Counted from the stretch's first letter, positions 35,920 through 50,132 are shown. The stretch is 64,000 bases of DNA from Pelagomonas calceolata (GCA_918797485.1 CAKKNE010000005.1:1240001-1304000); one strand, 5' to 3'. Notes: generated by a model from the letters alone, not told the origin. Translations and numbers: made by a program.

Positions 35920-36201
35920 GTTTCAGTTAGTCATCTTTTGCATTCATGCGCATGTGGCTATATCATTTAGCCACTTGTGCGGCCATTTCACGGCCTTTTG
36001 CCTGTGCTGCTTTGTTTCTAGTGCCTTTACAGCACGCTAGCTTGTGCGGGCGGCCGCTTTGTTTTGACCACATAGCTGCTCGAAATTGGCTTAGAGCAGT
36101 CAGCCCGAACGCTGCGTGCAAGCGTGCGCCAGTGCTGGCGCGAACGCAAGCCAGCAAACCAAGTTTGGTCACTCCTCTCACTGCCCCCAGCTGGCTCACA
36201 C

Positions 36202-37551
36202 ATGGCAACACGCCCAGCCGCTCTCGCAGCCGCGGCCGGCGTAGCGGTCGGCGTAGTGGTCGGAGCAGCGCTGTCGGCGCTGTGGCGAAGGCGTAAACGC
36301 GCCGCCGAGCAAGTGAACGAGAGCACAATCAGGCTGATGACGCGTGTGGCCATCGAGAGCGGCGCCGTCAATCTCAGCCAGGGGTTTCCGAACGAGCCGC
36401 CACCGCGCGAGATGGCGTGCGCGGCGGCCGGGGCACTCCTGTGCGGAGCGTCGGCTGATAGCGCCGCCGCTGCTGCCGCAACCCTCGAGGCGACGGGCCC
36501 GCGGGCTGAAGAAACCGACGCGCTCAACCAGTACTCGTTCCCTTACGGCGCACCTGAGCTTCGGCGAGCGGTGGCCAAGTACTACGCCCAGCGCTTCCCC
36601 GGGGCGTTCGCTTACGACGCTGACGAGAACATCACGATCGTCGCGGGCGCGACCGAGGGTTTTGCGGCGTGCATTCGCGCGCTGGCGGAGCCCGGCGACG
36701 TCATCGCGTTCTTTGAGCCCTGCCACGAGCTTTATCCCAGCCAGCTCGCGCTCTTCGGCATGCTGCCGCGAGCCGTAACGCTGACGGCTCACGAAACCGA
36801 CTGGTCGTTCGACGCCGCCGAGCTCGAAGCGGCGCTGCGAGGCGCGAGACTGTTCCTCTTCAACGACCCGCACAACCCAACGGGACATCGCTTCTCGTCG
36901 GCTGAGCGCCGCCTCATCGTGAAACTTTGCCGCAAGCACGGCGTCCTTATCGTCACCGATGAGATATACGAATGGATACTCTACGGTAGTGACATCGACG
37001 TCCACGAACCGCTCGCGGTGCTCGACCCCGAGAACGTGGTGATTGTGTCCTCTATCTCGAAGACGGCACGCGCGACGGGCTGGCGAATAGGGTGGGTCGT
37101 TGCGTCGGCGCCGAGAACCCAGCGCATACGAGCCGTACACGACCAGCTCGTCGCGTGTGTGGCCACACCGCTGCAGATAGGCGTCGCGCGCCTCCTGGAG
37201 ATGGACAAGGCACGGTTCGCGGATCTTCGGGGCGAGTACCAAACAAAGCGCGACGTGCTCGGGGCGGCGCTGTCGAAGGCCGGCTTCGACCTCGGCCCTG
37301 AACCAAAAGGGGCCTACTATTGGTTCGTCGGTTACAAAGGAGTGCCTCAGCTGCAGTCGTTGGACCCGCTGGCGGCCGCGATGATCATGACGCGAGAGTA
37401 CGGCGTCGCATGCGTGCCGGGGGACAATTTCTACGTGTCCGCGCGGCGGACTGATGCGGCGCACGGCCAGCGGTACCTGCGCTTCGCGTTCTGCCGGTCG
37501 CTCGGCGTGCTGCAAGCCGCGGGCGAGCGCCTGGCGGCGATGTCTGTTTAA
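36202..37551 (+). CDS. PLP-dependent class I/II aminotransferase (kynurenine/glutamine transaminase-like)
   Basis: AVNLSQGFPN, NQYS..GAPELR, GATEG, NDPHNPTG, TDEIYE, SISKT..TGWRIGW, LRFAFCR. Confidence 0.95.
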   Translation: MATRPAALAAAAGVAVGVVVGAALSALWRRRKRAAEQVNESTIRLMTRVAIESGAVNLSQGFPNEPPPREMACAAAGALLCGASADSAAAAAATLEATGPRAEETDALNQYSFPYGAPELRRAVAKYYAQRFPGAFAYDADENITIVAGATEGFAACIRALAEPGDVIAFFEPCHELYPSQLALFGMLPRAVTLTAHETDWSFDAAELEAALRGARLFLFNDPHNPTGHRFSSAERRLIVKLCRKHGVLIVTDEIYEWILYGSDIDVHEPLAVLDPENVVIVSSISKTARATGWRIGWVVASAPRTQRIRAVHDQLVACVATPLQIGVARLLEMDKARFADLRGEYQTKRDVLGAALSKAGFDLGPEPKGAYYWFVGYKGVPQLQSLDPLAAAMIMTREYGVACVPGDNFYVSARRTDAAHGQRYLRFAFCRSLGVLQAAGERLAAMSV

Positions 37552-37582
37552 GTACTGATGTAAGATACACACTAAAGTTAGA

Positions 37583-40500
37583 TTAACAGGCGTCCGCGTA
37601 CTCCGCTTCAGGAAACGCGCAGCGCACGAGCGGGTTCCCGGCCCAGGCCTGGTGCGCCTCGCCGCAGAGCCCGGCGAGGTGCGTCGCGCGGCCGGGCGCT
37701 TGAATCACAGTCCCGGCCGGTAACTGGGAGCCGGGCAGGACCTGGCCGTGGCGCGAGAGTCCCAAGTCGCAACCTCGACCGATGGACGTCGGCTTCATCG
37801 CCAGGTGCAGCATGGAGAAGTCGTGCGCGTACGTGGCTGCCGACGTCACCGTGCCATCGCCAATTTCGACCAGATCGGCCTCCGCCGCCCCTGCTAATAA
37901 AAGTGAAGGGTAGGGGTAGAACCGCACTCTTGATCCGAGCTTGAACCCTACACACGACGCATAGATCGAAGCGTACTCGTAGACGTGGCGCCACGCCCCG
38001 TCGACGGCCGGGCACCGGGCTAATTTTTGGACGCACGCCCATCTTAAATGCTGTCCGGAGCGTAGCGGCACTTTCGAGGTCTCCGTCGCTTTCCCAACCA
38101 CCAACCACTTGAACACGACATGCGTCAAGGGCTTGAGGGGGTCGGCCATCACTAGACACGCCACAAGTAATAAAACGAGGGCGGCGTTCCGCGACGCGAC
38201 CGTACTCAAAGTGAGCCACACCCGTAACAATGGCGTCGTGTGGGCCTCGTGGATCAAGGAAGCGACGCGCACTTCGTGGAGCGGTGGCGACCACGGGTAC
38301 CGCCCCACAAAACCAAGGGCCACCCATAACAGTATTCTAGGAGCCTGGACGGCGACGACATGACCTAATCTTTCGGTGGCGAACATGGCCAATGATGACG
38401 TGAAAGCCCAGCCCCACTCCGTCGACGCGTCCAATCGTTGGGGGCGCCACGCTAAGGTACACGGCTTTTGGGCGTCGCCGATGGCGACCCTGCCATCGGG
38501 TACTATTTCATGTGAACTGATGATGCTGTTCGCGCCCGTCGCGCCCTTTATCATGGAACCGGGCTGGAGCAAGGTGTTGGGCCCGACGAAGCAGCCGTCT
38601 CCTATCGTAACGCCGACTGCAGTAACGGTGGACCCTTCCACTTTGAGAGGCCGCAACGTCACGTGCGCCCCGAGGTAGCTATCCGAGCCGATCTCAATTA
38701 ACTCCGGCGCGTCGACGGCGCCGTGCAGTTCCGACAGGACGACGCCTTTCTGACCGACGGTCGCGCCGGCCCACCGCCACGCCACATTACATAAAGGCGT
38801 AAAGGAGAACGGCGCTTCGCAGGACGCGATGAACAATTTGCGCCAGAAGACGCGCGTCTCGTGCGTCGAGACGAAGAACCTCGACAGCGTATACGTCTTG
38901 CCCCTCTCCAGTTTTCTTTGTAGCATTCTCACAATCAATCCAAGCGCGCAGGGCTCTAAGATGCCTCTTAACAAAGCTGCCCCTAATACAGATAACCCAA
39001 AGACCACGGGTCGCCGTCGTAAGATAAGAGGCGCCCTCAGTAACAAACTGACGGCCGGCAGCGCACATATAAAGTGGACCAGCGGCATCAGCACCAAGAA
39101 TGTCAATAGAGGTAGGGGATACGCGTCCTTCCCGTCCGTACAACGGACTACCGTGTCCACGGCGACTCGATTCTCAGGAAAAGTAGCCGAGCGGGCCACG
39201 TAAGTCTGGCAGCCCGCACCAGCACAAACTTTTGCATCTTCAGAGATGTGGGCCCCGTGCCTCACCTCGGCACCGTCGCCTATTTTCACGTTGCTTTCAA
39301 TGCGGACGTGGCCCAACGTTATTACAGTAGTCGAGGTCAACGACGTCGTATCTACTGTAGCGTTCGGGGACATGACCACGCCGTCGCCGATCGTTAATAA
39401 GTCTCCGGGTGGGGCGTCCCAGGCGATGGGTCCTCGCAGGCAACATCTCGACCCGACGGAGCAGCCCATCGCGCGTAAAAACCAGATTTGTATGCAAGGC
39501 GGGAGCCACGGCGCATGCCACCAGAAGGCACTGAAGGATAAAGGTACCGCGCTTTGCCACAGGGCGTTCCTATAACCAATCGACGACTCCCAGATCGGGA
39601 ACCGACCCGCCCGTTGCCTTCCTACTACTATCCACTTTCCGACCGCGCACGCGAGGTGACACCCGAGACACCACAATACATAGTAGACCACGCCGGTGAT
39701 GCACAGCTCTATCGTAAACCTTGCGATAAATACATAGGAAGGAGTCCAGGCATGTAAACCTGTCGTAATGAACTCCAACCTTTGATCGCGAAGAAACGCG
39801 TTCCGCGGCAACCCAGGATAAGGTCGCGACGGCCTCGGGAGCTGCGCCTCGACCCATAAAGCGACCCTAGCACCAACTCGAGCCTCCAACACCCACATCT
39901 TCGGCGCGAGGCGCCACCTTGTAGGTAAGTAGTTTTCAAGCACGAACGCCGGCATGGCTCCGCAAACAGCGATCTGGGCTCCGACGATGCGAGCCAATAA
40001 AGTGAACCACAGCCGCCTCAGTAGACAGGGTTCCTCGAGGTCCTTGACGGGGATCTTATCTTCTGCCTTTGGCTCGTTAGCTTTCCCGACAGAAATTGCT
40101 CTTCTAGAAGCCGCCTTGAGCGTGATGTCTCCCAAGGTCTCCGCTCCTAAAACATCGGACACGGACCAGGCCTTGCCCGTCGCGTCCGACAGGTCCTTGA
40201 CGACGGCCATGGCGTCCAGCGAGTCCAAGCCTAGGGACGCTAGTCTTGTCTGGGGTTCGACCGTCGAAGCACAGTGCCGCTGCAACACGTCCAGGACGTC
40301 CGTAGAGCAGTCGGATTCTACGGAGGTGGGCACCAAAGACGCGACCTCGCCCAGCGTTTTGGCCCCGAGGACGTCGATCACAGAAAGACAAGCCCCAGTA
40401 ACGGCGTTGAGCTCCCGCACGCAGGCCATGGCGTCGAGCGAGTCCAAGCCTAACGTTTGTAGCGGTGTCGCTGCGGTCAACGACGAAACAGTAGTGTGCT

Positions 40501-43500
40501 TGGCGACGATGCGGGCGACGGCTTTTAGTGGATCGACGACGACTGTCGAGGGCTCCTCCTTCGTAGAGGACACGCCGAGGAACCGCCCCAAGATTGGCTC
40601 CCTCGACGCCGCCAGGGCCACCGCTTCGCAATCGAAGCGCGCCACGCAAATGTTCCCCGACTTGCTGAGGGCCCCGTCCAGCGCTGACAAAGCGTCCTCC
40701 TCGGCCAAAGCGTCGTAGGGCGCGTTCGGCGTGCCACTACCATGATGCTTCGCCAATGACGCCATGCCGCAGCGCCAGGGCCCCCAGTTTATGGCGAGGC
40801 ACGTGCGCGGCCGCCGGCCTTTCACAGTAGATAAATACCGTGCCCGCGCGTCGAGGCCGCCATTACTGCAGGCGTAGTCCGTCTGGCCCGCGTTGCCCAG
40901 TAACGAAGATATGGATGAGAAGGCCACATCCATCTGAACCGGGGGCTTATGACAGGCTTGGCGCGCGGCGTCGACCGCCGCGCTCAGCAGCAAAGCCCCT
41001 TCCAATTTAGGCTTGAGGGCCTTCCGCAACGACTCCAGGTCGCGCGATGGTAACGCACCGTCGCCACAGAGGCCCGCCGCGTGTATCAAACCGTCTATCG
41101 AAGAACCATGTTCGACAGCGAACCTCGAGACACTTTCAGGAGAGGACACGTCGACTCTGTAGACCTCGCACCCGTCGACAGTTGTCGTGTTTCGAGCCAG
41201 CAAGAGTATGCGGGCGGCGCCCCGTTTTAATAAATGCTTGGCCGTACGCTGGCCGAGCGCTCCCGTGCCTCCGGAAATTGCAATGGTCAGACCGTTCACC
41301 GACACCGGCATGGATTCATCCACTGGTTGTAACCTCCTCACACTTATAGTATTCTTCTCGAGAAGGGCGTCATCTTCTCTATCGCTCAAGAGCTCCTCCG
41401 CGACGTCCTCGTGAGACGCGTCGTCCACGGCGAGCGTCCTTAAGACCAAAGCACTGCCCGCGAGGCCCGCTTCACGTCGAGCTGCTCTCATGAGCCCCTC
41501 GACGCACCCCGCGGCGATGGACGATGCCTCGCTCGCATCCGACGTGCACGCGACTAACCGACGGGGACCCCGCTGGTTGAGCGCGCACTTGAGCGCGGCC
41601 TGCAAGGCACCGGCCGTCGACGAGGCCATGGAGGCGACGCGCGATGCCCTTCTACAAGCGTCGTCGATCATGACCGTAGCATCTTGTGATGAAGGGATGA
41701 GGGGCGTCGCTTCTGAGGCCGGTCGCTCCTCCTCGGGAACGGCGACTTCCTGAACACATGTAGGCGCTAAGAACACGACGCAGTCCCAGGTCTGGGCCGT
41801 GGCCGCCGCCGCGAGGAGCGGCAGTTCGACGCAGCGCCCGCGTCTCTCTCGAACGTTCTCCCGGATGGCGACAGATAGTGGAGACTCTTCGTCTCGGAGG
41901 ACGAGCACCTGCAGCGCCGTCGCTCGTAATAACGAAGCGGGCACCCATTGTGATGAGAAGGTCCGTCCCGTCAAGTTTCTTTGTGGAGTCGTCGCCTCGC
42001 GTCGTTCCTCGAACCAGCATCGTTCGCCGACAAACACTGTGGGAGGCGCTTTCAGAGAGGATTCGGCTTCAGTGAGGTCCACGCCCTTTGTGAATAATTT
42101 TGATACGGCCTCCGCGAGGAGCGTGGGCTCGCTTCCCAAGCGTTTCGGCCCTCGCAGCGTGCAAACGACCTCACCGTCGACGTGGGGACTCAGATGCGGC
42201 GCGCAGCCCACTTCCACTATTATCAGACGCTTGGAAGACGACGCGCGTAAGGCGTTCAGGGCTTCCCTAAACCGCACTTTACTACGCAGCTGCCTTTTCC
42301 AATAGTCGTCGCCTTCGTCACTTAACCGGGCGCCGGTCACCGTCGAGTAGACGGCTACATTACTGGGTTGAAAGGTCACGGTGGGAAGGTCCTGCAAACA
42401 TCCGTCGACGCAGCGCGAGTGGTAGCCCGTGGCCGCTCGCAACCGCTTCGTCTTGAAGCCCTGCTCCGTTAACGCCTCAATAGCGACATCGACGGCCTCG
42501 ACCTCCCCAGCGATGGCGCAGCCATGCATCGAGTTGTCCGCCGCGACCTCGACATTAACAAGCGCTTCCACAGCTTCGGCCGAGGCGTTCACCGCGACCG
42601 TCGCACCTTCACTTGCTCTCGTAGCTACAGCTCGGCCCCTCAACACCACTAAGCGAGCCGCGTCATGCAAGGACAACACCCCAGCGACGCAGCAGGCCGC
42701 AATTTCACCTAGCGAGTGGCCTATGACAGCCTCAAGTTTTGTGGTTGTTTTCGCGAGGATTGATTTTGATAAAGCATAAGCAATACAGAAGCCGTAGGGC
42801 TGCGCTAGACTCGCGTCGTCCAATAATTCGTCGGCTGCGGCGTCTTTCCCCAATCTGTTCAAGTTTGAGACGTCCATATGTGTACTACAAGCGTGGACCG
42901 CGTCCTCGTACGCCGCGCGGAAGGCCTCGTCTCCCAACAACGACGTGACAGCCCCGGCGTAGGCCGCGCCCTGGCCCGTGAACACAAAAGCTAATGCGAC
43001 GTCTCCCTCATGCTCATTGATAGCGACTGTCTCGAGCGCCGCCGCGAGCGCCGCGCGACCACCCTTTGCAGGTACGACGGCCGCAGTTCTGTATCTACGT
43101 TTATTCAAAGAAGAGCGCTTCACTAAACACTTCGCCACGTCATCGACATTCTCCTTTTGAGACCATACTTTGATGCGCTTGCAGGTCGCTCGCAACGAAG
43201 CTGAGGAATGGGCCTCGAGCGGCACTACCAATGCTTCACTGTTGACGACCTCCTCCCGTCTCGTTACTTTACGGCCCGTGACCACGACATGCCCGAGAGC
43301 CCCGCCAAAGCCGAACGACGACACCCCGACCGCGCCTCCGCCGAGGTCCTCGTTTTTAGTAACAATAGTAATAGAAGACCAGTCGACGGCCGTGTTCGGC
43401 GTCTTGAAGTGTAAGGACCGCGGCACGACACCTTCACGAAGAGCGTGGCAGGCCTTGGCCAGACCGACTAATCCAGAACACCCCTCGAGGTGACCGATAT

Positions 43501-46500
43501 TCGTCTTGACCGAACCAGTTCGTACCATACCAGGGAAGTGCTTCCCCAGGGCGCCTAGTTCTATCGGATCACCGAGTTTCGTGCCCGTGCCGTGGGCTTC
43601 GATCAGTGCTACGGCTCCGTCATACGTAGAATAGGCCGCCCTTAATACGGCCTGTTGCGCTTTTGGATTGGGCGCCGTCAGGCCGTTGCTTCTACCGTCC
43701 TGGCCGATCCCGATGCCTACTATACCTTCAGTACCCCTTTCTAGTAAAAAAGCACCAACACCCTCGCCTCGGACGTAGCCGTCCGCGGCGTTATCACCAA
43801 ATTTGCATCGGTAGGACGGGCTTAGCATGCCCGCGGCCGCAAAACAGTCGGACCACTGCGGTCTCAGCTGTAGGTTCGCACCGCCGACTAGTACTGCAGA
43901 ACATTCGTTCCCATCCAATGAACGTTTCGCTACTGACAAACAAGTCAGGGACGAGGAGCAGGCCGTGTTTAGCGCTACGGACGGGCCCCTTAAATCAAAA
44001 GTGTAACTCACGCGATTCGGCGCCACGGCCGTGTGAGAGCCCGTCCCCGTGTAAGGTGATGGTTTATGCTGTTGCAGGTACGCGTAGTCCGACGTCTCGA
44101 TGGCGCAGAAGACGCCTATTTGGAGACCGTTGTCACTGTTCAAAGCCGGCGTGGCCCGGTAGCCCGCCGTTTCCAGGCTTTCCGCGCAGCACGCTAAGAA
44201 GAGTCTTTGCTGCGGGTCCGTGGCCGCCGCTTCCGCTCTCGACATCCCAAAAGCTTGAGCATCGAACATTGATACTGTAGAAGCCTTCAGGTAGGCTCCT
44301 GGCCTCCCCGTGTGCGGGCGGTCCGCCGGGACGCCTGTCACGCAATCTCTGCCGTCAAGTAAAGCCTTCCACAACTCTTGGGCGTCGCCGGCCGCCGTTC
44401 TTAGGGACATGGATGTGATCCGTAGAGCTTCACTAAGCGTTTGTTTTTTAAGTGGTAACGCCCGCTCGATTGCCACCACAGGAAATAATTTGGACAGGAC
44501 GTGGTCCCGGATGCCTCGCAGCGACACGCACTCGTAGGCCAGTGTGGGAGGTAACTTGAGAGAGAGGGCCTCGCTCAGCGACGCCGCCAAGGCGGTCGCT
44601 CCCAGCGACGTCACGCCTAGGGACGTCACGGCCGCGTCTAGCTCGAAGCGCGGCACGAGCGTCTTCATAAAGTCGTCCAATTGACGGATGCGGTTGCCCT
44701 CGTCCAAGGACTCGAGCGTCGCCCGCAGTGAGGATGCCGTTTCCGTGGGTGTACACATCGTAGCGGCGAGCGGGTGCGGTTCTGATCGACAAGCGGCGTA
44801 GCGCGCCCAGTTCATCGGCAGGACCGCCGCGGAGGATAATGAGGAGGTAGCTAACGCTGTAAGTGCCGAAAATCCCTCATCGAGCGAGAGCATGCCCAGG
44901 CCCGAGGCCTCTTGCATTTGAGCGAACTCCGAACCCAGGCGATGCGCCATGCCCGCTCCCGCCCACGTGCCCCAGGCGATGCTCAACGCCGGCAGTCCTT
45001 CACTACGTCGTTGGGCACACAAGGCGTCCTGGAAGGCGTTTGCGGCCGCGTACGCGCCGAGGCGCTCGTGGCCGAGCAAGCCATAGACCGACGTGAAGAC
45101 CACGAAGCGGTCCACTTCGTACTGTCGCGTCGCTGCATCCAAATTGCGGGAGCCTTGTACCTTCGGCGCCAGTACTTTAGCTAAATGTGTTTGATCAATC
45201 TCGGCGATAGATGCACTATCGAGCACGCCGGCGAGGTGCCACACGCTTATTGGTTTCTGGTAGGCCTTGGCCCTCTTTATTAATGAAAGAACGTCTTGTT
45301 CGTCGGTGATGTCGCATTGCACGTAGTGATCGCATTTTAACGTCTCGGGCTTCGTCGCCCGCCGGCCGGCGACGAGGACCGTGCCCGTGAGGCGCGCCGC
45401 CCAGGCCGCGCCGAGGCCGCCGGCGCCTCCCACAATCACGTGGACGCCTCCACCAACGTCGTCGCTGGCGTCGACCTCTACTTTTTGTAAACTGGGCACG
45501 AGGCGACTTCCTCTTCGCCACGCGGCCTCCGGCGTATTACATGAGAGCTCCTTCGGGATACTGTCTTCGTCATCAACGTCGACGACGCGCACGTCGACGC
45601 CTTCGGCTCTTGCTGCGCGACAGAGCCCCCACACCGCGCCCGCAGCTGGCCTTACGACGTCGTCATCATTGATGAAGAGACCGCGCGTCACGATAAGTAC
45701 GGAGTGGCCGCTGGTCGCTTGGAGCGCCGCGAGCACTTGCTTTATACAATATTCGGCTTCGCCGTCGACGACGACCACGAGCGCGCTCTCTGGTCTTAAC
45801 GCTTCGGCGATGCGTGTTCGCTCCTCGGTTAAAGTCCCGGTCATGGCCTCTAAACGCGTGTCGCCGAAGCTCGCCTCACCAATAACGACGACGTGGTTCG
45901 GCCTATTCAACGATTGCGCTGCAGCAGCGACCCACGATACATCATAGACGTGCTCGACGGGCTTTGACAAGTCCCGCTTCCGAAGTAAGGCCTTTGCGAC
46001 CTTGCCCGAGCCCGTGAGAGGGAGCGATTCCACTAGATCTATATGTGAAGGCACTTTGTAGTCCGCCAGGAATTTCGAGCAGTGACGACGCAGCGCCTCC
46101 GCTGTACAAGAACCGACAACCTTGGCGACCACGCGCTCGCCCATGGACTCGCAGGGCAACCCATAGACGCACGCCGTCTTCACGTGAGGATGGTCGTGCA
46201 GCACCCGTTCCACCTCACAGCAATAGACGTTCTCGGAACCGACCAGTATCATATCTTTCGCTCGGTCCACGATCGTGATGTAACCGTAACTATTGATAGT
46301 AGCTAAGTCGCCGGTCCGGAACCACTCTTTGTTGTAAAAGGCTTTTGAGGTGGCTTCGTCATTATTATCGTACCCTTGGAACACCGTAGGACCCCGGATC
46401 CAGACCTCCCCAACTTCTGATGCAGTGACGTCCACCGGTTGTTCAGTAGAGTCCCAGTTCCGCACCACCCTTAAATCAATCAACCCAAAGGCCTTGCCTG

Positions 46501-47665
46501 AGGTAGTGATGAGCTCGACGGGGTCGCCCTCGTTTATTATCGATGTTGAAATCTTCCCGCAACATTCGGTCATGCCGTAGGACAGGAAGAACTCGCACCC
46601 AAAAATGCGTTGGGCTTGCCGCACCGTTTCCGTTGATAGAGGAGCGCCGCCGCAGGACAGGAGTTCCAGGGACGTTGTGAGTGGTCGGGCGCAGCGCGGA
46701 TCTTTCAACAGTAGCGACACCATCGTCGACGCCATGTTCGTCACCGTGACGCCATGGTGACAGAGGGCGTCCAATGTCTTCGTCGCATCGAAGCTCGGTA
46801 ATATGAGATGCCTTCCTTGTACAAATGTGAGCGCGAAAATAGCATAAGCATCCACTAGATGGAACATCGGCGCCACGTGGAGCCAGACGTCTTTTGATGA
46901 GATGCGGTGCTCCACGATACATTGCAGAGCGTGGAGGAGCACGTTTCTTCTCGTGAGTACGACTCCTTTCGGTCGTCCTGACGTTCCAGACGTGTAGTAC
47001 ATCTCGGCGCTGGCTACGCTTAAAGCGTCGTCCGGTCGCTCGGGGACGGGTCCTTTCGACGCTACGTCTTCATACGTCGAAGCGTCCAGCGTTATTTGAT
47101 CACTCCGCGCTGCCGCCACGAGATCGCGATACATCCCATCCACAATTAACACCTTGCAGCCGGCGTGTTCTAAACACCATTTCAGTTCCGAAGGGGCCAA
47201 TCTTGGATTGCAGTTCAGCAGCGTGAGGCCGCCGAAGGCGCAGGCGTAGTGGGCCTCGAACGCGAGTAGCGAATTGGGCGCGACGAGACCGACGCGGTCG
47301 CCGGCTTTTAAGTGAAGCCGGAGCCAGCCGCCAATACGCGCGCATCTAGATCGTGTCTCGGCGTAGGACCGTCGCACGCCCGTGGCCAAATCGCGCAGCG
47401 CGTCGGCCCGGTCCGCGTCCGCGAGAAGCTGCCAGAGGTCGCAGGCCGCGCCGCGCAGGTGCGCCGCGAGCGCCGCTTGCGCTGCCGACGTGTCGGCCGT
47501 GCGCCGCTCGTCTTTGATCTCGAGGACGATGTTGCGCGGCGAGGCCGGTTTAGGTGGTGGTGGCGGGGGCTGCCCAATATTATTTTGCAGCGCATCGGCC
47601 GGCGGGTTCGCGCGGCTGCGCGCCTGCCGCGCCCAGCGGGCGGCCTGGCGCTCGGCCCGCGACAT
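37583..47665 (-). CDS. Hybrid megasynthase (~3360 aa): adenylation (acyl-CoA-ligase-like)-KR-ACP-KS-AT-KR-ACP-ACP-membrane/hexapeptide-repeat terminal domain
   Basis: A: YTSGTSGRPKG, SYGMTE, FRTGD, PLTGSGK. KR1: GGAGGLG, YAAAN. ACP1: LGVTSL. KS: TACSSS, HGTGT, NIGHLE. AT: FTGQG, GHSLG. KR2: GGTGALG, YACSN. ACP2/3: LGLDSL x2. Terminal: KWIVVGR..GRFPIW, three beta-helix blocks separated by hydrophobic helices, WAGNP. Confidence 0.93.
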   Translation of the reverse strand: MSRAERQAARWARQARSRANPPADALQNNIGQPPPPPPKPASPRNIVLEIKDERRTADTSAAQAALAAHLRGAACDLWQLLADADRADALRDLATGVRRSYAETRSRCARIGGWLRLHLKAGDRVGLVAPNSLLAFEAHYACAFGGLTLLNCNPRLAPSELKWCLEHAGCKVLIVDGMYRDLVAAARSDQITLDASTYEDVASKGPVPERPDDALSVASAEMYYTSGTSGRPKGVVLTRRNVLLHALQCIVEHRISSKDVWLHVAPMFHLVDAYAIFALTFVQGRHLILPSFDATKTLDALCHHGVTVTNMASTMVSLLLKDPRCARPLTTSLELLSCGGAPLSTETVRQAQRIFGCEFFLSYGMTECCGKISTSIINEGDPVELITTSGKAFGLIDLRVVRNWDSTEQPVDVTASEVGEVWIRGPTVFQGYDNNDEATSKAFYNKEWFRTGDLATINSYGYITIVDRAKDMILVGSENVYCCEVERVLHDHPHVKTACVYGLPCESMGERVVAKVVGSCTAEALRRHCSKFLADYKVPSHIDLVESLPLTGSGKVAKALLRKRDLSKPVEHVYDVSWVAAAAQSLNRPNHVVVIGEASFGDTRLEAMTGTLTEERTRIAEALRPESALVVVVDGEAEYCIKQVLAALQATSGHSVLIVTRGLFINDDDVVRPAAGAVWGLCRAARAEGVDVRVVDVDDEDSIPKELSCNTPEAAWRRGSRLVPSLQKVEVDASDDVGGGVHVIVGGAGGLGAAWAARLTGTVLVAGRRATKPETLKCDHYVQCDITDEQDVLSLIKRAKAYQKPISVWHLAGVLDSASIAEIDQTHLAKVLAPKVQGSRNLDAATRQYEVDRFVVFTSVYGLLGHERLGAYAAANAFQDALCAQRRSEGLPALSIAWGTWAGAGMAHRLGSEFAQMQEASGLGMLSLDEGFSALTALATSSLSSAAVLPMNWARYAACRSEPHPLAATMCTPTETASSLRATLESLDEGNRIRQLDDFMKTLVPRFELDAAVTSLGVTSLGATALAASLSEALSLKLPPTLAYECVSLRGIRDHVLSKLFPVVAIERALPLKKQTLSEALRITSMSLRTAAGDAQELWKALLDGRDCVTGVPADRPHTGRPGAYLKASTVSMFDAQAFGMSRAEAAATDPQQRLFLACCAESLETAGYRATPALNSDNGLQIGVFCAIETSDYAYLQQHKPSPYTGTGSHTAVAPNRVSYTFDLRGPSVALNTACSSSLTCLSVAKRSLDGNECSAVLVGGANLQLRPQWSDCFAAAGMLSPSYRCKFGDNAADGYVRGEGVGAFLLERGTEGIVGIGIGQDGRSNGLTAPNPKAQQAVLRAAYSTYDGAVALIEAHGTGTKLGDPIELGALGKHFPGMVRTGSVKTNIGHLEGCSGLVGLAKACHALREGVVPRSLHFKTPNTAVDWSSITIVTKNEDLGGGAVGVSSFGFGGALGHVVVTGRKVTRREEVVNSEALVVPLEAHSSASLRATCKRIKVWSQKENVDDVAKCLVKRSSLNKRRYRTAAVVPAKGGRAALAAALETVAINEHEGDVALAFVFTGQGAAYAGAVTSLLGDEAFRAAYEDAVHACSTHMDVSNLNRLGKDAAADELLDDASLAQPYGFCIAYALSKSILAKTTTKLEAVIGHSLGEIAACCVAGVLSLHDAARLVVLRGRAVATRASEGATVAVNASAEAVEALVNVEVAADNSMHGCAIAGEVEAVDVAIEALTEQGFKTKRLRAATGYHSRCVDGCLQDLPTVTFQPSNVAVYSTVTGARLSDEGDDYWKRQLRSKVRFREALNALRASSSKRLIIVEVGCAPHLSPHVDGEVVCTLRGPKRLGSEPTLLAEAVSKLFTKGVDLTEAESSLKAPPTVFVGERCWFEERREATTPQRNLTGRTFSSQWVPASLLRATALQVLVLRDEESPLSVAIRENVRERRGRCVELPLLAAAATAQTWDCVVFLAPTCVQEVAVPEEERPASEATPLIPSSQDATVMIDDACRRASRVASMASSTAGALQAALKCALNQRGPRRLVACTSDASEASSIAAGCVEGLMRAARREAGLAGSALVLRTLAVDDASHEDVAEELLSDREDDALLEKNTISVRRLQPVDESMPVSVNGLTIAISGGTGALGQRTAKHLLKRGAARILLLARNTTTVDGCEVYRVDVSSPESVSRFAVEHGSSIDGLIHAAGLCGDGALPSRDLESLRKALKPKLEGALLLSAAVDAARQACHKPPVQMDVAFSSISSLLGNAGQTDYACSNGGLDARARYLSTVKGRRPRTCLAINWGPWRCGMASLAKHHGSGTPNAPYDALAEEDALSALDGALSKSGNICVARFDCEAVALAASREPILGRFLGVSSTKEEPSTVVVDPLKAVARIVAKHTTVSSLTAATPLQTLGLDSLDAMACVRELNAVTGACLSVIDVLGAKTLGEVASLVPTSVESDCSTDVLDVLQRHCASTVEPQTRLASLGLDSLDAMAVVKDLSDATGKAWSVSDVLGAETLGDITLKAASRRAISVGKANEPKAEDKIPVKDLEEPCLLRRLWFTLLARIVGAQIAVCGAMPAFVLENYLPTRWRLAPKMWVLEARVGARVALWVEAQLPRPSRPYPGLPRNAFLRDQRLEFITTGLHAWTPSYVFIARFTIELCITGVVYYVLWCLGCHLACAVGKWIVVGRQRAGRFPIWESSIGYRNALWQSAVPLSFSAFWWHAPWLPPCIQIWFLRAMGCSVGSRCCLRGPIAWDAPPGDLLTIGDGVVMSPNATVDTTSLTSTTVITLGHVRIESNVKIGDGAEVRHGAHISEDAKVCAGAGCQTYVARSATFPENRVAVDTVVRCTDGKDAYPLPLLTFLVLMPLVHFICALPAVSLLLRAPLILRRRPVVFGLSVLGAALLRGILEPCALGLIVRMLQRKLERGKTYTLSRFFVSTHETRVFWRKLFIASCEAPFSFTPLCNVAWRWAGATVGQKGVVLSELHGAVDAPELIEIGSDSYLGAHVTLRPLKVEGSTVTAVGVTIGDGCFVGPNTLLQPGSMIKGATGANSIISSHEIVPDGRVAIGDAQKPCTLAWRPQRLDASTEWGWAFTSSLAMFATERLGHVVAVQAPRILLWVALGFVGRYPWSPPLHEVRVASLIHEAHTTPLLRVWLTLSTVASRNAALVLLLVACLVMADPLKPLTHVVFKWLVVGKATETSKVPLRSGQHLRWACVQKLARCPAVDGAWRHVYEYASIYASCVGFKLGSRVRFYPYPSLLLAGAAEADLVEIGDGTVTSAATYAHDFSMLHLAMKPTSIGRGCDLGLSRHGQVLPGSQLPAGTVIQAPGRATHLAGLCGEAHQAWAGNPLVRCAFPEAEYADAC

Positions 47666-48020: not shown

Positions 48021-50132
48021 ATGGCGGCAGCGGCCGGCAACATCGAGGCGGTCGACGAGGTCAATCGGGCGGATGAGCACGGCCGGACGCAGCTATGGAT
48101 CGCCTGCTGCGACGGCCACGTCGATGCGACACGGTCGTTGCTGGAGAAAGGCGCGGCGATCGACCGGGCAACCGAGTGGGGCGCGACGCCGCTGCACATC
48201 GCCTGCCGGAACGGGCACGTCGACGCTGTGCGGCTATTACTGGACAAAGGCGCGGAGGTCGACCGGGCGACAGAGGAAGGTCAGACGCCGCTATGGATAG
48301 CCTGCCAGAAGGGCCACGTCGCCGTGGCGCGGCTGTTGCTGGCACAAGGCGCGGACGTCAATCGGGCGAATAAGTACGATGAGACGCCGCTATTCATCGC
48401 CTGCGAGAACGGCCACGTCGACATGGAGCGTCTGTTGCTGGACAACGGCGCGGAGGTCGACCGGGCGGTTGGGGACGTGACGCCGCTGCTCGTCGCCTGT
48501 TCTGAGGGCCACGTCGACGTGGCACGGCTGTTGCTAGATAAAGGCGCGGAGGTCGATCGGGCGGACACGGAGGGCTGGACGCCGTTGCTCACCGCCTGCT
48601 CGCAAGGCCACGTCGCCGTGGTGCGGCTGCTGCTGGACCACGGCGCAGACGTCAATAGGGCGGACGAGGACGGTTCGACGCCGCTGTCAATCGCAAAAGA
48701 AGAGCGCCACTCGTCCATCGTCGAGCTGCTCGAGGAACACTTGGATTCGAAGTTCCCACTTCACGCTGCGGCAAGGACCGGCGACGTCGAGGCGATGAGT
48801 CAACTCCTGGACGACGGCGCAGAGGTAGACGCGAAGAAGGACGGCGCGACTCCACTATTCGTAGCTTGCGAGAAGGGCCACGTCGACTTGGCGCGGCTGC
48901 TGTTAGATAAAGGCGCGGACGTTAATCAGGCGAATAAGAAGGGTAGGACGCCGCTATTCATCGCCTGCCAGAAGGGCCACGTCGACGCGGCGAGGCTGCT
49001 GCTGGACAACGGCGCGGAGGTCGATCGGGCGAATAAGTTAGGCGGAACGCCGCTGTTCGTCGCCTGCCAGTACGACCGTGTCGACGCGGCGCGGCTGTTG
49101 CTGGAAAAAGGCGCGGCGGTCGATCGGGCGATGGAGGACGGTGCGACGCCGCTGTACATCGCCTGCGCGGCAGGCCACGTCGAAACGGCGCGGCTGGTGC
49201 TGGAGAAAGGCGCGGAGGTCGACCTGGCGGCGAATAACGGTGCGACGCCGCTGTACGTCGCCTGCCAGTTTGGCCACGTCGACGCGGCGCGGCTGCTGCT
49301 GGAGAAAGGCGCAGCGGTCGATCGGGCGACGGAGAGCGGTGCGACGCCGCTGTATATAGCCTGCAAGAACGGCCACGTCGACGTGGTGCGGCTGGTGCTG
49401 GACAAAGGCGCGGACGTTAATCGGGCGGACAAGTACGACCAGACGCCGCTGCACGTCGCCTGTCAGAAGGGTCACGTCGATGCGGCGCGGCTGTTGCTGG
49501 AGAACGGCGCGGAGGTCGACCGGGCGGACAAGGACGGCCGGACGCCGCTGTGGATCGCCTGCCAGCAGGGCCACGTCGACGCGGTGCGGCTGCTGCTGGA
49601 GAAAGGCGCGGCGGTCGATCGGGCGGATACACAGGGCAGGACGCCGCTGGACGCAGCAAAGCATCGCCGTCGTGACGCAGTCGTCGCGCTCATCGAGGAC
49701 CACCGTTACAAGGCAGACATCGACGCGACTGCGCCGGTGGCGACCCAGTGGCACGGCAAAAATCTGGCGAACATGTATGCCAGCAAAAAGAGGGCGCTCC
49801 AGGAACGCGACGAGGCGCTCGAGCAGGCCAATAAGCGCGCCGCCAGGGTTGAGCAAGAGCGAGATGACCACGAGAGCCGCGAGAAGCTCCTAGACTCGAT
49901 GGTCCTTCCTCTCGAAGAACAGCGCCGGCAGCTCCAGGAGATCGTGGGCGACGCGGCGAAAGCGCTGATTAATCGAGGCGTGCCGACGCGCGTGCTGCCC
50001 GATGCCGATACACCGTTCTACTACGCCCGAAACTCCTGGGACACGGAGCAAAGGGTCCCGTGGAACGCCGAGGCGGATCGCCCGATGAGCCTCGCCGAGG
50101 GCATCGCGTGGCTCCACGACCACGGATCGTAA
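48021..50132 (+). CDS. Ankyrin-repeat protein (~17 repeats) with C-terminal coiled coil
   Basis: GxTPLxxACxxGHVDxARLLLxxGAxVDRA consensus; ~99-bp near-tandem DNA repeats. Confidence 0.95.
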   Translation: MAAAAGNIEAVDEVNRADEHGRTQLWIACCDGHVDATRSLLEKGAAIDRATEWGATPLHIACRNGHVDAVRLLLDKGAEVDRATEEGQTPLWIACQKGHVAVARLLLAQGADVNRANKYDETPLFIACENGHVDMERLLLDNGAEVDRAVGDVTPLLVACSEGHVDVARLLLDKGAEVDRADTEGWTPLLTACSQGHVAVVRLLLDHGADVNRADEDGSTPLSIAKEERHSSIVELLEEHLDSKFPLHAAARTGDVEAMSQLLDDGAEVDAKKDGATPLFVACEKGHVDLARLLLDKGADVNQANKKGRTPLFIACQKGHVDAARLLLDNGAEVDRANKLGGTPLFVACQYDRVDAARLLLEKGAAVDRAMEDGATPLYIACAAGHVETARLVLEKGAEVDLAANNGATPLYVACQFGHVDAARLLLEKGAAVDRATESGATPLYIACKNGHVDVVRLVLDKGADVNRADKYDQTPLHVACQKGHVDAARLLLENGAEVDRADKDGRTPLWIACQQGHVDAVRLLLEKGAAVDRADTQGRTPLDAAKHRRRDAVVALIEDHRYKADIDATAPVATQWHGKNLANMYASKKRALQERDEALEQANKRAARVEQERDDHESREKLLDSMVLPLEEQRRQLQEIVGDAAKALINRGVPTRVLPDADTPFYYARNSWDTEQRVPWNAEADRPMSLAEGIAWLHDHGS

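What the first reader, a model, noticed from the sequence alone, without database searches (positions are those of the whole stretch)
37583..47665. PKS megasynthase ending in a poly-amino-acid-synthetase-type membrane domain: candidate eukaryotic polyester/polymer synthase
Seen: one uninterrupted ORF ordered A (~45980-47440), KR (~44830-45450), ACP (~44600), KS (~43280-44425, Cys/His/His intact), AT (~42170-42990, GHSLG), KR (~40680-41290), two ACPs (~40440, ~40220), then ~820 aa of hydrophobic helices alternating with three hexapeptide beta-helix blocks (FLRAMGCSVG..DLLTIGDG; WRWAGATVG..ELIEIGSD; CVGFKLG..DLVEIGDG..WAGNP) and KWxVVG motifs. No TE, terminal reductase, C, DH or ER motif was recognised. 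Known: this terminal arrangement resembles the NRPS terminal domain (TIGR02353) of Streptomyces epsilon-poly-L-lysine synthetase Pls, where it polymerises carrier-bound monomers at the membrane. Inference: the monomer here is a once-extended, ketoreduced hydroxy-acyl unit, so the enzyme could build and export a polyester or acylate a surface polymer. I know of no characterised product for this architecture in an alga.
Basis: partly seen in the sequence, partly recalled or inferred. Interest (0 to 1): 0.93.

Follow-up and report, generated by a model that had tools for sequence, protein, structure and literature searches.

The report
Algal polyketide-fed membrane polyester synthase
This algal gene encodes one 3,360-residue protein that joins a small polyketide assembly line to a distant relative of the membrane domain bacteria use to polymerise lysine; the same layout occurs in several unrelated groups of marine protists, and it likely builds a hydroxy-acid unit and would link it into an undescribed polyester or onto a membrane-bound acceptor.

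Summary
Observation confirmed. One stop-free 3,360-aa ORF reads A-KR-ACP-KS-AT-KR-ACP-ACP, then an 815-aa domain that matches TIGR02353 (E 2e-26, three stretches; 93 bits against a cut-off of 423). It models confidently (pLDDT 86) as three helix-pair plus beta-helix repeats, as published for PosA. His3281 is invariant in 15 of 15 PKS-fused and 43 of 43 Pls-type domains, but the acidic motif that follows it in amino-acid polymerases is absent.

New here: the same line occurs in 16 other sequences: pelagophytes, Emiliania, three diplonemids, Cymbomonas, one Effrenium-like contig and one unnamed protein. The seven non-pelagophyte ones carry an N-terminal acetolactate-synthase-like ThDP region. 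The A domain is acyl-CoA-ligase type, and both KRs keep their catalytic Tyr, so the unit likely has two or more hydroxyls.

Best reading (0.5): a membrane polyester synthase fed by a PKS. Rival (0.3): an acyltransferase onto a lipid or glycan. The reported fungal polymalate synthetase (A-T, six TM) is a probable ester-forming precedent. Pieces of the layout are in print as unexplained 'LbH' PKSs; my searches found no Pls link. Earlier scan notes cover only stand-alone Pls-like domains elsewhere. Substrate and product are untested.

The parts
37583..47665 (-). Single-ORF megasynthase, 3,360 aa (P0001)
   Evidence: no indels and no well-supported joints in the RNA lays
45980..47404 (-). Adenylation domain of acyl-CoA-ligase type (FHLVDAY with His269, no amino-acid-binding FDxS; YGMTECCGK; Lys of TGSGK intact)
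44960..45448 (-). Loading-module ketoreductase core (Tyr872); its structural subdomain lies upstream, to about 45970
44486..44683 (-). Loading ACP (GVTS motif, Ser1020)
43256..44422 (-). Ketosynthase, Cys1236/His1358/His1392 intact
42056..42988 (-). cis-acyltransferase (GHSLG; GYHS here, GFHS in most homologues)
40748..41284 (-). Extension-module ketoreductase (Tyr2264)
40331..40534 (-). ACP 2 (GLDS, Ser2409)
40112..40312 (-). ACP 3 (GLDS, Ser2482)
37586..40030 (-). Pls-like terminal domain: three repeats of a TM-helix pair, two helices and a left-handed beta-helix
37823..37825 (-). His3281 (YAHDF, repeat 3): invariant, putative catalytic base; not matched by a His at the equivalent place of repeats 1 and 2

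Best explanation
The protein is a single-chain assembly line of acid-loading, ketoreductase, chain-extension and carrier domains ending in a Pls-like membrane beta-helix domain, and it likely makes a short polyhydroxy-acyl unit that this domain would join into a polyester.

Steps:
(1) Shown: A is of acyl-CoA-ligase type. Inferred: it loads a non-amino oxo-acid on ACP1.
(2) Inferred: KR1 reduces the oxo group. The acid is likely a ThDP carboligation product (an acetolactate-type 2-hydroxy-3-oxo acid), because homologues outside pelagophytes carry an acetolactate-synthase-like region fused in front of A. Here the acid would come from elsewhere in the cell.
(3) Shown: intact KS, AT and KR motifs, no DH or ER. 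Inferred: one malonyl extension and reduction on ACP2/3.
(4) Predicted: the three beta-helices form one cytosol-facing pseudo-trimer over six TM helices. His3281 would activate a hydroxyl of the growing chain to attack the ACP thioester, and the chain would be released at or through the membrane.

If the starter is acetolactate (about 0.15), the unit would be 3,4,5-trihydroxy-4-methylhexanoate (residue C7H12O4, 160.07 Da).
For: Domain: TIGR02353 hit. The model matches the published PosA model of six TM helices under three packed beta-helices (PMC10522769, passages). His3281 is invariant in 15 of 15 PKS-fused and 43 of 43 Pls-type rows.

Residues after the His track the A-domain type: 32 of 43 rows have H-x-x-E-[DE], and those with a recognisable A4 motif have the amino-acid FDxS type; 10 of 43 have H-x-N-[ST] with CoA-ligase-type A domains; 1 is neither. 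The PKS-fused set has Y-x-H-[DNS]-F.

Precedent: the characterised carriers of this domain named in PMC10522769 are homopolymerases. The fungal polymalate synthetase (A-T, six TM, no TE, 5,049 bp) forms esters (review passages). An acid-type row, P0104, is nearest a 1,693-aa eukaryotic (Ascomycota) A-T-hexapeptide cluster.

No other release domain. The whole line is conserved in 16 other sequences. KR1 is closer to modular-PKS KRs (E 1e-37 to 1e-17) than to the A-KR entry 6ULW (E 8e-08).
Against: No product is known and no biochemistry exists for any member. The domain scores far below the family cut-off and forms its own clade, so function may have shifted.

The same ThDP-A-(KR)-ACP cassette is fused to an LpxA-like domain in P0202 and to a PapA_C domain in P0229/P0233. 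Both are acyltransferases to external acceptors. All fold matches are small-molecule acyltransferases or other LbH proteins.

I could not fetch the polymalate synthetase sequence, so its Pls-type nature is inferred. The window's protein has no ThDP region, the ThDP region looks degenerate in diplonemid, Picozoa and one Cymbomonas copy, and the ThDP region fits no named family above cut-off. KR1 here departs from the family consensus (VLDSA for VVDDG, GAY for THY). A single KS could iterate.
Confidence: 0.5

Rival explanations
1. Same assembly line, but the terminal domain is a one-step membrane acyltransferase that places the polyhydroxy-acyl unit on an external acceptor (a glycolipid, lipid-linked glycan or wall polysaccharide).
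For: The sister cassette ends in an LpxA-like domain (P0202; TIGR01852 E 1e-49, below cut-off) or a PapA_C domain (P0229/P0233). Nearest folds are LbH acyltransferases, including acyl-ACP-dependent LpxD/LpxA. The acidic motif after the His is lost and a family-specific R3202/H3206/W3209/Y3279 set is gained. Earlier scan notes describe carrier-less Pls-like domains beside glycosyltransferases (unchecked).
Against: The carrier-fused members with a known product in the papers read are homopolymerases. No glycosyltransferase was recognisable among the 36 window ORFs I translated and read by eye.
Confidence: 0.3
2. The terminal domain releases a small molecule (lactone, cyclic dimer, short oligomer, or amide with a small amine), acting as the missing thioesterase or condensation domain for an osmolyte or signal compound.
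For: There is no TE or reductase, and polyhydroxy acyl chains lactonise readily (own knowledge). Wide conservation suggests a housekeeping metabolite.
Against: A six-TM pseudo-trimer is retained in all full-length homologues, which simple release would not need.
Confidence: 0.12
3. The starter carries an amine or onium group (an amino-acid-derived 2-oxo acid supplied by the adjacent aminotransferase), and the product is a Pls-like cationic polyamide or polyester.
For: A methionine-aminotransferase-like gene lies tail-to-tail at 36124-37551. Asp272 is invariant in the A-domain alignment. The ThDP region scores about equally with 5-guanidino-2-oxopentanoate decarboxylase and acetolactate synthase.
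Against: No FDxS motif in A and no E-D motif after the His. The aminotransferase is a separate convergent transcription unit. None of nine metagenome loci showed one, though their flanks are short.
Confidence: 0.08

Closest known systems
Pls / PosA homopoly(amino acid) synthetases (A-T-terminal domain; TIGR02353)
   Same: Carrier domain followed by three TM-pair plus beta-helix repeats; KW..G, R..GA..G, E-x-D and invariant His motifs; no TE (PMC10522769).
   Different: 93 bits against a cut-off of 423; separate clade; no QTHLFEDR; acid-type A domain; KR-ACP-KS-AT-KR inserted, so the unit is built on the enzyme.
Polymalate (PMA) synthetase of Aureobasidium melanogenum
   Same: Eukaryotic; A-like, T and 'C-like' domains, six TM, no TE; forms ester bonds between hydroxy acids (review passages).
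   Different: Loads a ready-made monomer and has no PKS module. Homology of its terminal domain to this one is inferred, not tested; the primary paper was not seen.
Karenia brevis contigs 54805 (KS-AT-KR with PP and three LbH) and 34829 (tpp-A-KR-PP-KS...); Chrysophaeum taylorii cis-AT PKSs with LbH
   Same: The same building blocks were noted in print (PMC5725682 Table 3; PMC10366177). Chrysophaeum CTAYLR_005181 and _005198 have this exact layout.
   Different: In the passages read they are 'unusual domains', with no membrane domain, Pls link or product proposed.
A-KR-T loading modules of depsipeptide synthetases (cereulide, valinomycin, StsA type; names recalled)
   Same: A-KR-carrier order that gives a hydroxy-acyl starter.
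   Different: A is CoA-ligase-like and KR1 is closer to modular-PKS KRs than to 6ULW; followed by a KS rather than a C domain.
Fungal PKS2/PBG13 3,5-dihydroxyhexanoate polyester system (bioRxiv 10.1101/2024.08.07.606736)
   Same: A PKS-made dihydroxy acid is polymerised to a polyester that alters wall permeability (passages).
   Different: Two separate cytosolic enzymes; functional analogue only, no homology tested.

Membership tests
Pls/PosA synthetases (TIGR02353) | Score above the curated cut-off of 423.1 bits | tested here: not met
   92.6 bits; relatives 113 and 167; control P0036 602
Pls/PosA synthetases (TIGR02353) | Terminal domain of six TM helices in three pairs with three beta-helix repeats | tested here: met
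Pls/PosA synthetases (TIGR02353) | Three-domain A-T-terminal architecture | tested here: not met
   KR-ACP-KS-AT-KR lies between A and the last carriers
Pls/PosA synthetases (TIGR02353) | Amino-acid-activating A domain with the alpha-amine-binding Asp | tested here: not met
   FHLVDAY; nearest profiles and structures are CoA ligases
Pls/PosA synthetases (TIGR02353) | Invariant His in repeat 3 (conservation found here; catalytic role inferred) | tested here: met
   His3281: 15 of 15 and 43 of 43
Pls/PosA synthetases (TIGR02353) | Makes a homopolymer | not testable with these tools
   needs biochemistry
Polymalate-synthetase type (fungal A-T-six-TM) | Terminal domain in the acid-type H-x-N-[ST] clade | tested here: inconclusive
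   The PKS-fused set (14 rows) and the acid-type set (9 rows) fall on separate branches, but the PMA synthetase itself was not in the set
cis-AT type I PKS module | KS (C/H/H), AT (GHSxG), KR (catalytic Tyr) and ACP (Ser) in one chain | tested here: met
Depsipeptide A-KR-T alpha-keto-acid module | A and KR of that clade | tested here: inconclusive
   6ULW ranks low for both KR1 and A; no tree built; identity of 6ULW as StsA is recalled
LbH acyltransferases | Left-handed beta-helix fold | tested here: met
   WlbB 3mqg Z 12.2, rmsd 1.5, 80 aligned; PglB 4m98 Z 11.7, rmsd 2.0, 87 aligned; single-repeat matches only

The most novel reading that the evidence does not exclude
A megasynthase family shared by pelagophytes, haptophytes, dinoflagellates, diplonemids, a prasinophyte and probably Picozoa makes its own branched polyhydroxy-acid monomer from a ThDP carboligation product and extrudes it through a Pls-type membrane domain as an undescribed marine biopolyester: a third branch of the Pls superfamily and the first fed by a PKS.
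Probability: 0.35. Interest if true: 0.9.

Novelty: new variant of a known kind. Interest (0 to 1): 0.74.

Why it matters
It turns the unexplained 'LbH' tails and 'TPP' heads noted on algal PKSs into one testable pathway. The family occurs in abundant and bloom-forming plankton (Aureococcus, Aureoumbra, Emiliania, diplonemids), and this gene's sequence is covered in polyA seawater metatranscriptome contigs. An unknown polyester or acylated surface polymer could therefore be a real part of marine organic matter or of algal coats. The three-clade comparison gives a candidate catalytic His and neighbouring acceptor-determining residues for the Pls domain, which had no match among solved structures in my searches. 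A single-chain enzyme that both builds and polymerises its monomer would be a new route to engineered biopolyesters.

Tried and rejected
Genome: no whole genome is held for the window, so paralogues and a stand-alone ThDP partner could not be sought. The 'shorter' search with the ThDP region listed 46 proteins, none named as a pelagophyte; this is not evidence of absence.

Bacterial context: 80 loci matched by A-domain patterns held no Pls-like, KS, AT or ACP gene by my profiles. The closest bacterial A domains (PMFHLADAW; 11 loci) are stand-alone ligases with no shared neighbours evident in the ORF lists I saw (output partly cut). Three loci (L043, L063, L064) had a ThDP enzyme, a dehydrogenase-like ORF, an aminotransferase and a ligase in a row. 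I rejected them as unrelated: that ThDP enzyme is closer to PRK05858 and 2-hydroxyacyl-CoA lyase, and the ligase is of another type.

Structures: the PDB sequence search with the terminal domain gave nothing under E 0.08. The fold searches gave only single-repeat LbH matches and no Pls-like structure.

RNA: raw reads (four runs, one sample, 6-12% of each read) gave only scattered depth of 2.6 or less, and X24 had none inside most of the ORF. No contig spans the whole ORF. Two low-support, non-GT-AG joints in metatranscriptomes were not taken as introns.

Other: the maximum-likelihood tree timed out, so FastTree was used. My regex for the ThDP GDG motif was too strict; motif status was read from alignments instead. 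DMSP/gonyol-type chemistry (recalled BurA analogy) was considered and found no support. The Chrysophaeum supplement search had no hit for the locus tags. The second structure job and the complex job were not used.

Full report
OBSERVATION. The window is gene-dense eukaryotic DNA of about 63% GC. The nearest named relatives of the protein are pelagophyte algae, so the source is likely a pelagophyte (inference). 37583-47665 (-) is one ORF of 3,360 aa; 200 shuffles gave at most 353 stop-free residues. Pfam and NCBIfam give A (88-555), KR, ACP, KS, AT, KR, ACP, ACP and hexapeptide repeats, and no C, TE, DH or ER family. Catalytic motifs are present: KS C1236/H1358/H1392, AT S1651, KR Y872 and Y2264, carrier S1020/S2409/S2482.

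TERMINAL DOMAIN. Residues 2546-3360 match TIGR02353 at E 1.9e-26 in three stretches, but at 92.6 bits against a cut-off of 423; a Pls-type control scores 602. Six hydropathy peaks lie in three pairs. AlphaFold on an 89-row alignment gives pLDDT 85.9 and pTM 0.88, with three repeats of helix pair, two helices and beta-helix. This matches the PosA model described in PMC10522769 (passages). Fold searches return only single-repeat LbH proteins, for example WlbB (Z 12.2, rmsd 1.5, 80 aligned), and no Pls-like structure.

THE INVARIANT HISTIDINE. In an alignment of 15 PKS-fused and 43 Pls-type domains, His3281 is present in all 58. The 15 include near-copies (P0193/P0166, P0185/P0186). The equivalent place in repeats 1 and 2 is not His, which suggests one active site (inference). 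The residues after it split the set: 32 of 43 Pls-type rows have H-x-x-E-[DE], and those with a recognisable A4 motif have amino-acid A domains; 10 have H-x-N-[ST] with CoA-ligase-type A domains; 1 is neither. The PKS-fused rows have Y-x-H-[DNS]-F. A FastTree of 57 rows (P0193 and P0153 dropped, P0145 added) puts the 14 PKS-fused rows and the 9 acid-type rows each on their own branch (SH 99-100; midpoint root, long branches, no bootstrap).

FAMILY. Searches and local domain mapping found the whole line in 16 other sequences. Nine are pelagophyte or pelagophyte-like: Aureoumbra P0164; Chrysophaeum P0183, P0226, P0185; Aureococcus P0193; unnamed P0002, P0003, P0186, L081. P0185 and P0186 add a second AT after the membrane domain, and the P0193 model is damaged. 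Seven are from other groups: Emiliania-cluster P0220; diplonemids P0004, P0189, P0210; Cymbomonas P0188 (terminal domain partial); unnamed P0027; and L087, a 4,800-aa ORF 60% identical to an Effrenium protein, in which no AT was detected. Two Picozoa proteins stop after the ACPs, and a Bigelowiella fragment has the YGHNF end. The A-domain motifs FHLVDAY and YGMTECCGKIS are nearly invariant across these, which implies one conserved substrate.

THE ThDP REGION. All seven non-pelagophyte full-length members carry an N-terminal acetolactate-synthase-like ThDP region, in most as two tandem copies. In P0027 and L084 the first copy keeps the GIPGVQN and NEE segment and the second keeps GDG...DG, which suggests a single-chain pseudo-dimer with one site (inference). 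It looks degenerate in the diplonemids, Picozoa and P0188 and is absent from the nine pelagophyte-type members and from the window. It scores best, though far below cut-off, with acetolactate synthase, PRK08199 and 5-guanidino-2-oxopentanoate decarboxylase. The same ThDP-A-(KR)-ACP cassette ends in an LpxA-like domain in P0202 and a PapA_C domain in P0229/P0233.

EXPRESSION. Raw polyA reads from one culture sample cover the ORF sparsely (depth 2.6 or less), with mate orientation opposite to that of the two + strand neighbours, consistent with sense transcription; X24 had almost none. Contigs cover 28, 18, 29 and 29 of 30 bins in X1, X4, X6 and X7, with no indels. An X4 contig (39617-40409) bridges ACP3 and the membrane domain. 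Contigs of this gene and of the convergent aminotransferase stop at their shared boundary near 37550-37570. X1 and X4 are only guessed to be RNA, and no contig spans the gene.

MECHANISM. Shown: domain order, motifs, homology and conservation. Inferred: A is CoA-ligase-like and lacks the amino-acid Asp, so it loads a non-amino acid. KR1 is nearer modular-PKS KRs than the A-KR entry 6ULW, which fits a 3-oxo starter such as an acetolactate-type ThDP product (weak evidence). KS-AT-KR adds one unit, likely malonyl (GFHS/GYHS; the fingerprint is recalled), and there is no DH or ER, so hydroxyls are kept. With an even number of TM helices before each beta-helix, all three would face the ACP side. 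His3281 would act as the base for acyl transfer. Acceptor: the product's own hydroxyl (polyester, 0.5), an external lipid or glycan (0.3), intramolecular or small-molecule release (0.12), or an amine-bearing unit (0.08).

LITERATURE. PMC5725682 (passages including Table 3) lists Karenia contigs tpp-A-KR-PP-KS... and KS-AT-KR with PP and three LbH as unusual domains. PMC10366177 (part 2 of 5, passages, one supplement searched without hits) notes LbH in Chrysophaeum cis-AT PKSs; its domain figure could not be seen. Neither links them to Pls in what I read. PMC10522769 (abstract, passages, sections 10 and 14) surveyed homologues of 1,100-1,800 aa only, which excludes this family; its supplementary table was not opened. 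PMC11905612, PMC9210645 and PMC11286673 (passages) describe the fungal polymalate synthetase; the primary paper was not seen. bioRxiv 2024.08.07.606736 (passages) shows a PKS-derived wall polyester. PMC8506220, PMC11350588 and PMC4057078 (passages) gave background only. Searches returned 0 papers; the listings of 22, 28, 57, 67, 70, 85 and 95 showed no title or abstract on a PKS-Pls fusion. The library lacks most subscription journals.

EARLIER SCAN NOTES. They cover only stand-alone Pls-like domains in other genomes. Nothing was found for this fusion by sequence or by words.

VERDICT. Real, conserved and uncharacterised. It is not a member of TIGR02353, but it likely works like one with a PKS-made hydroxy-acid unit. 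New variant of a known kind; interest 0.74.

Noticed in passing
window 36124-37551 (+): PLP aminotransferase resembling PRK07777 / methionine aminotransferase (below cut-offs), convergent with the megasynthase, stops about 30 bp apart, better covered in culture RNA. It could supply 2-oxo acids; linkage not shown.
   Followed up: partly
P0202 (unnamed ENA protein, 2,343 aa): ThDP-ThDP-A-KR-ACP fused to an LpxA-like acyl-ACP:UDP-GlcNAc acyltransferase domain; may build and transfer an unusual hydroxy-acyl group to a sugar nucleotide.
   Followed up: partly
P0229, P0233 (unnamed, about 2,010 aa): ThDP-ThDP-A-ACP-PapA_C fusion without KR; a second use of the same loading cassette.
   Followed up: partly
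L087:122-14521, L088, P0227: Effrenium-like homologues have a long N-terminal extension with hydrophobic stretches (possible targeting peptide), and no AT was detected in L087/L088.
   Followed up: no
P0185, P0186: Divergent paralogues with an extra AT-like domain after the Pls-like domain.
   Followed up: no
P0145 (unnamed, 1,902 aa) and P0098 (2,000 aa): Other Pls-like fusions: KS...ACP-Pls-like-alpha/beta hydrolase, outside this family's clade; and FAAL-like A-ACP with a Pls-like domain split by an unidentified insert.
   Followed up: partly
P0039 (Mesostigma), P0043, P0045, P0047, P0066, P0067, P0084, P0088, P0104, P0153: Clade of A(CoA-ligase type)-T-Pls-like proteins with H-x-N-[ST] after the His; candidate polymalate-synthetase relatives, one of them in a green alga.
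   Followed up: partly
window 48021-50132 (+): Ankyrin-repeat protein, head-to-head with the megasynthase; reads from many paralogues map on it.
   Followed up: no
L043, L063, L064: Sphingomonad-type run of genes: ThDP enzyme (PRK05858 / 2-hydroxyacyl-CoA-lyase-like), dehydrogenase-like ORF, aminotransferase, CoA ligase; judged unrelated.
   Followed up: yes
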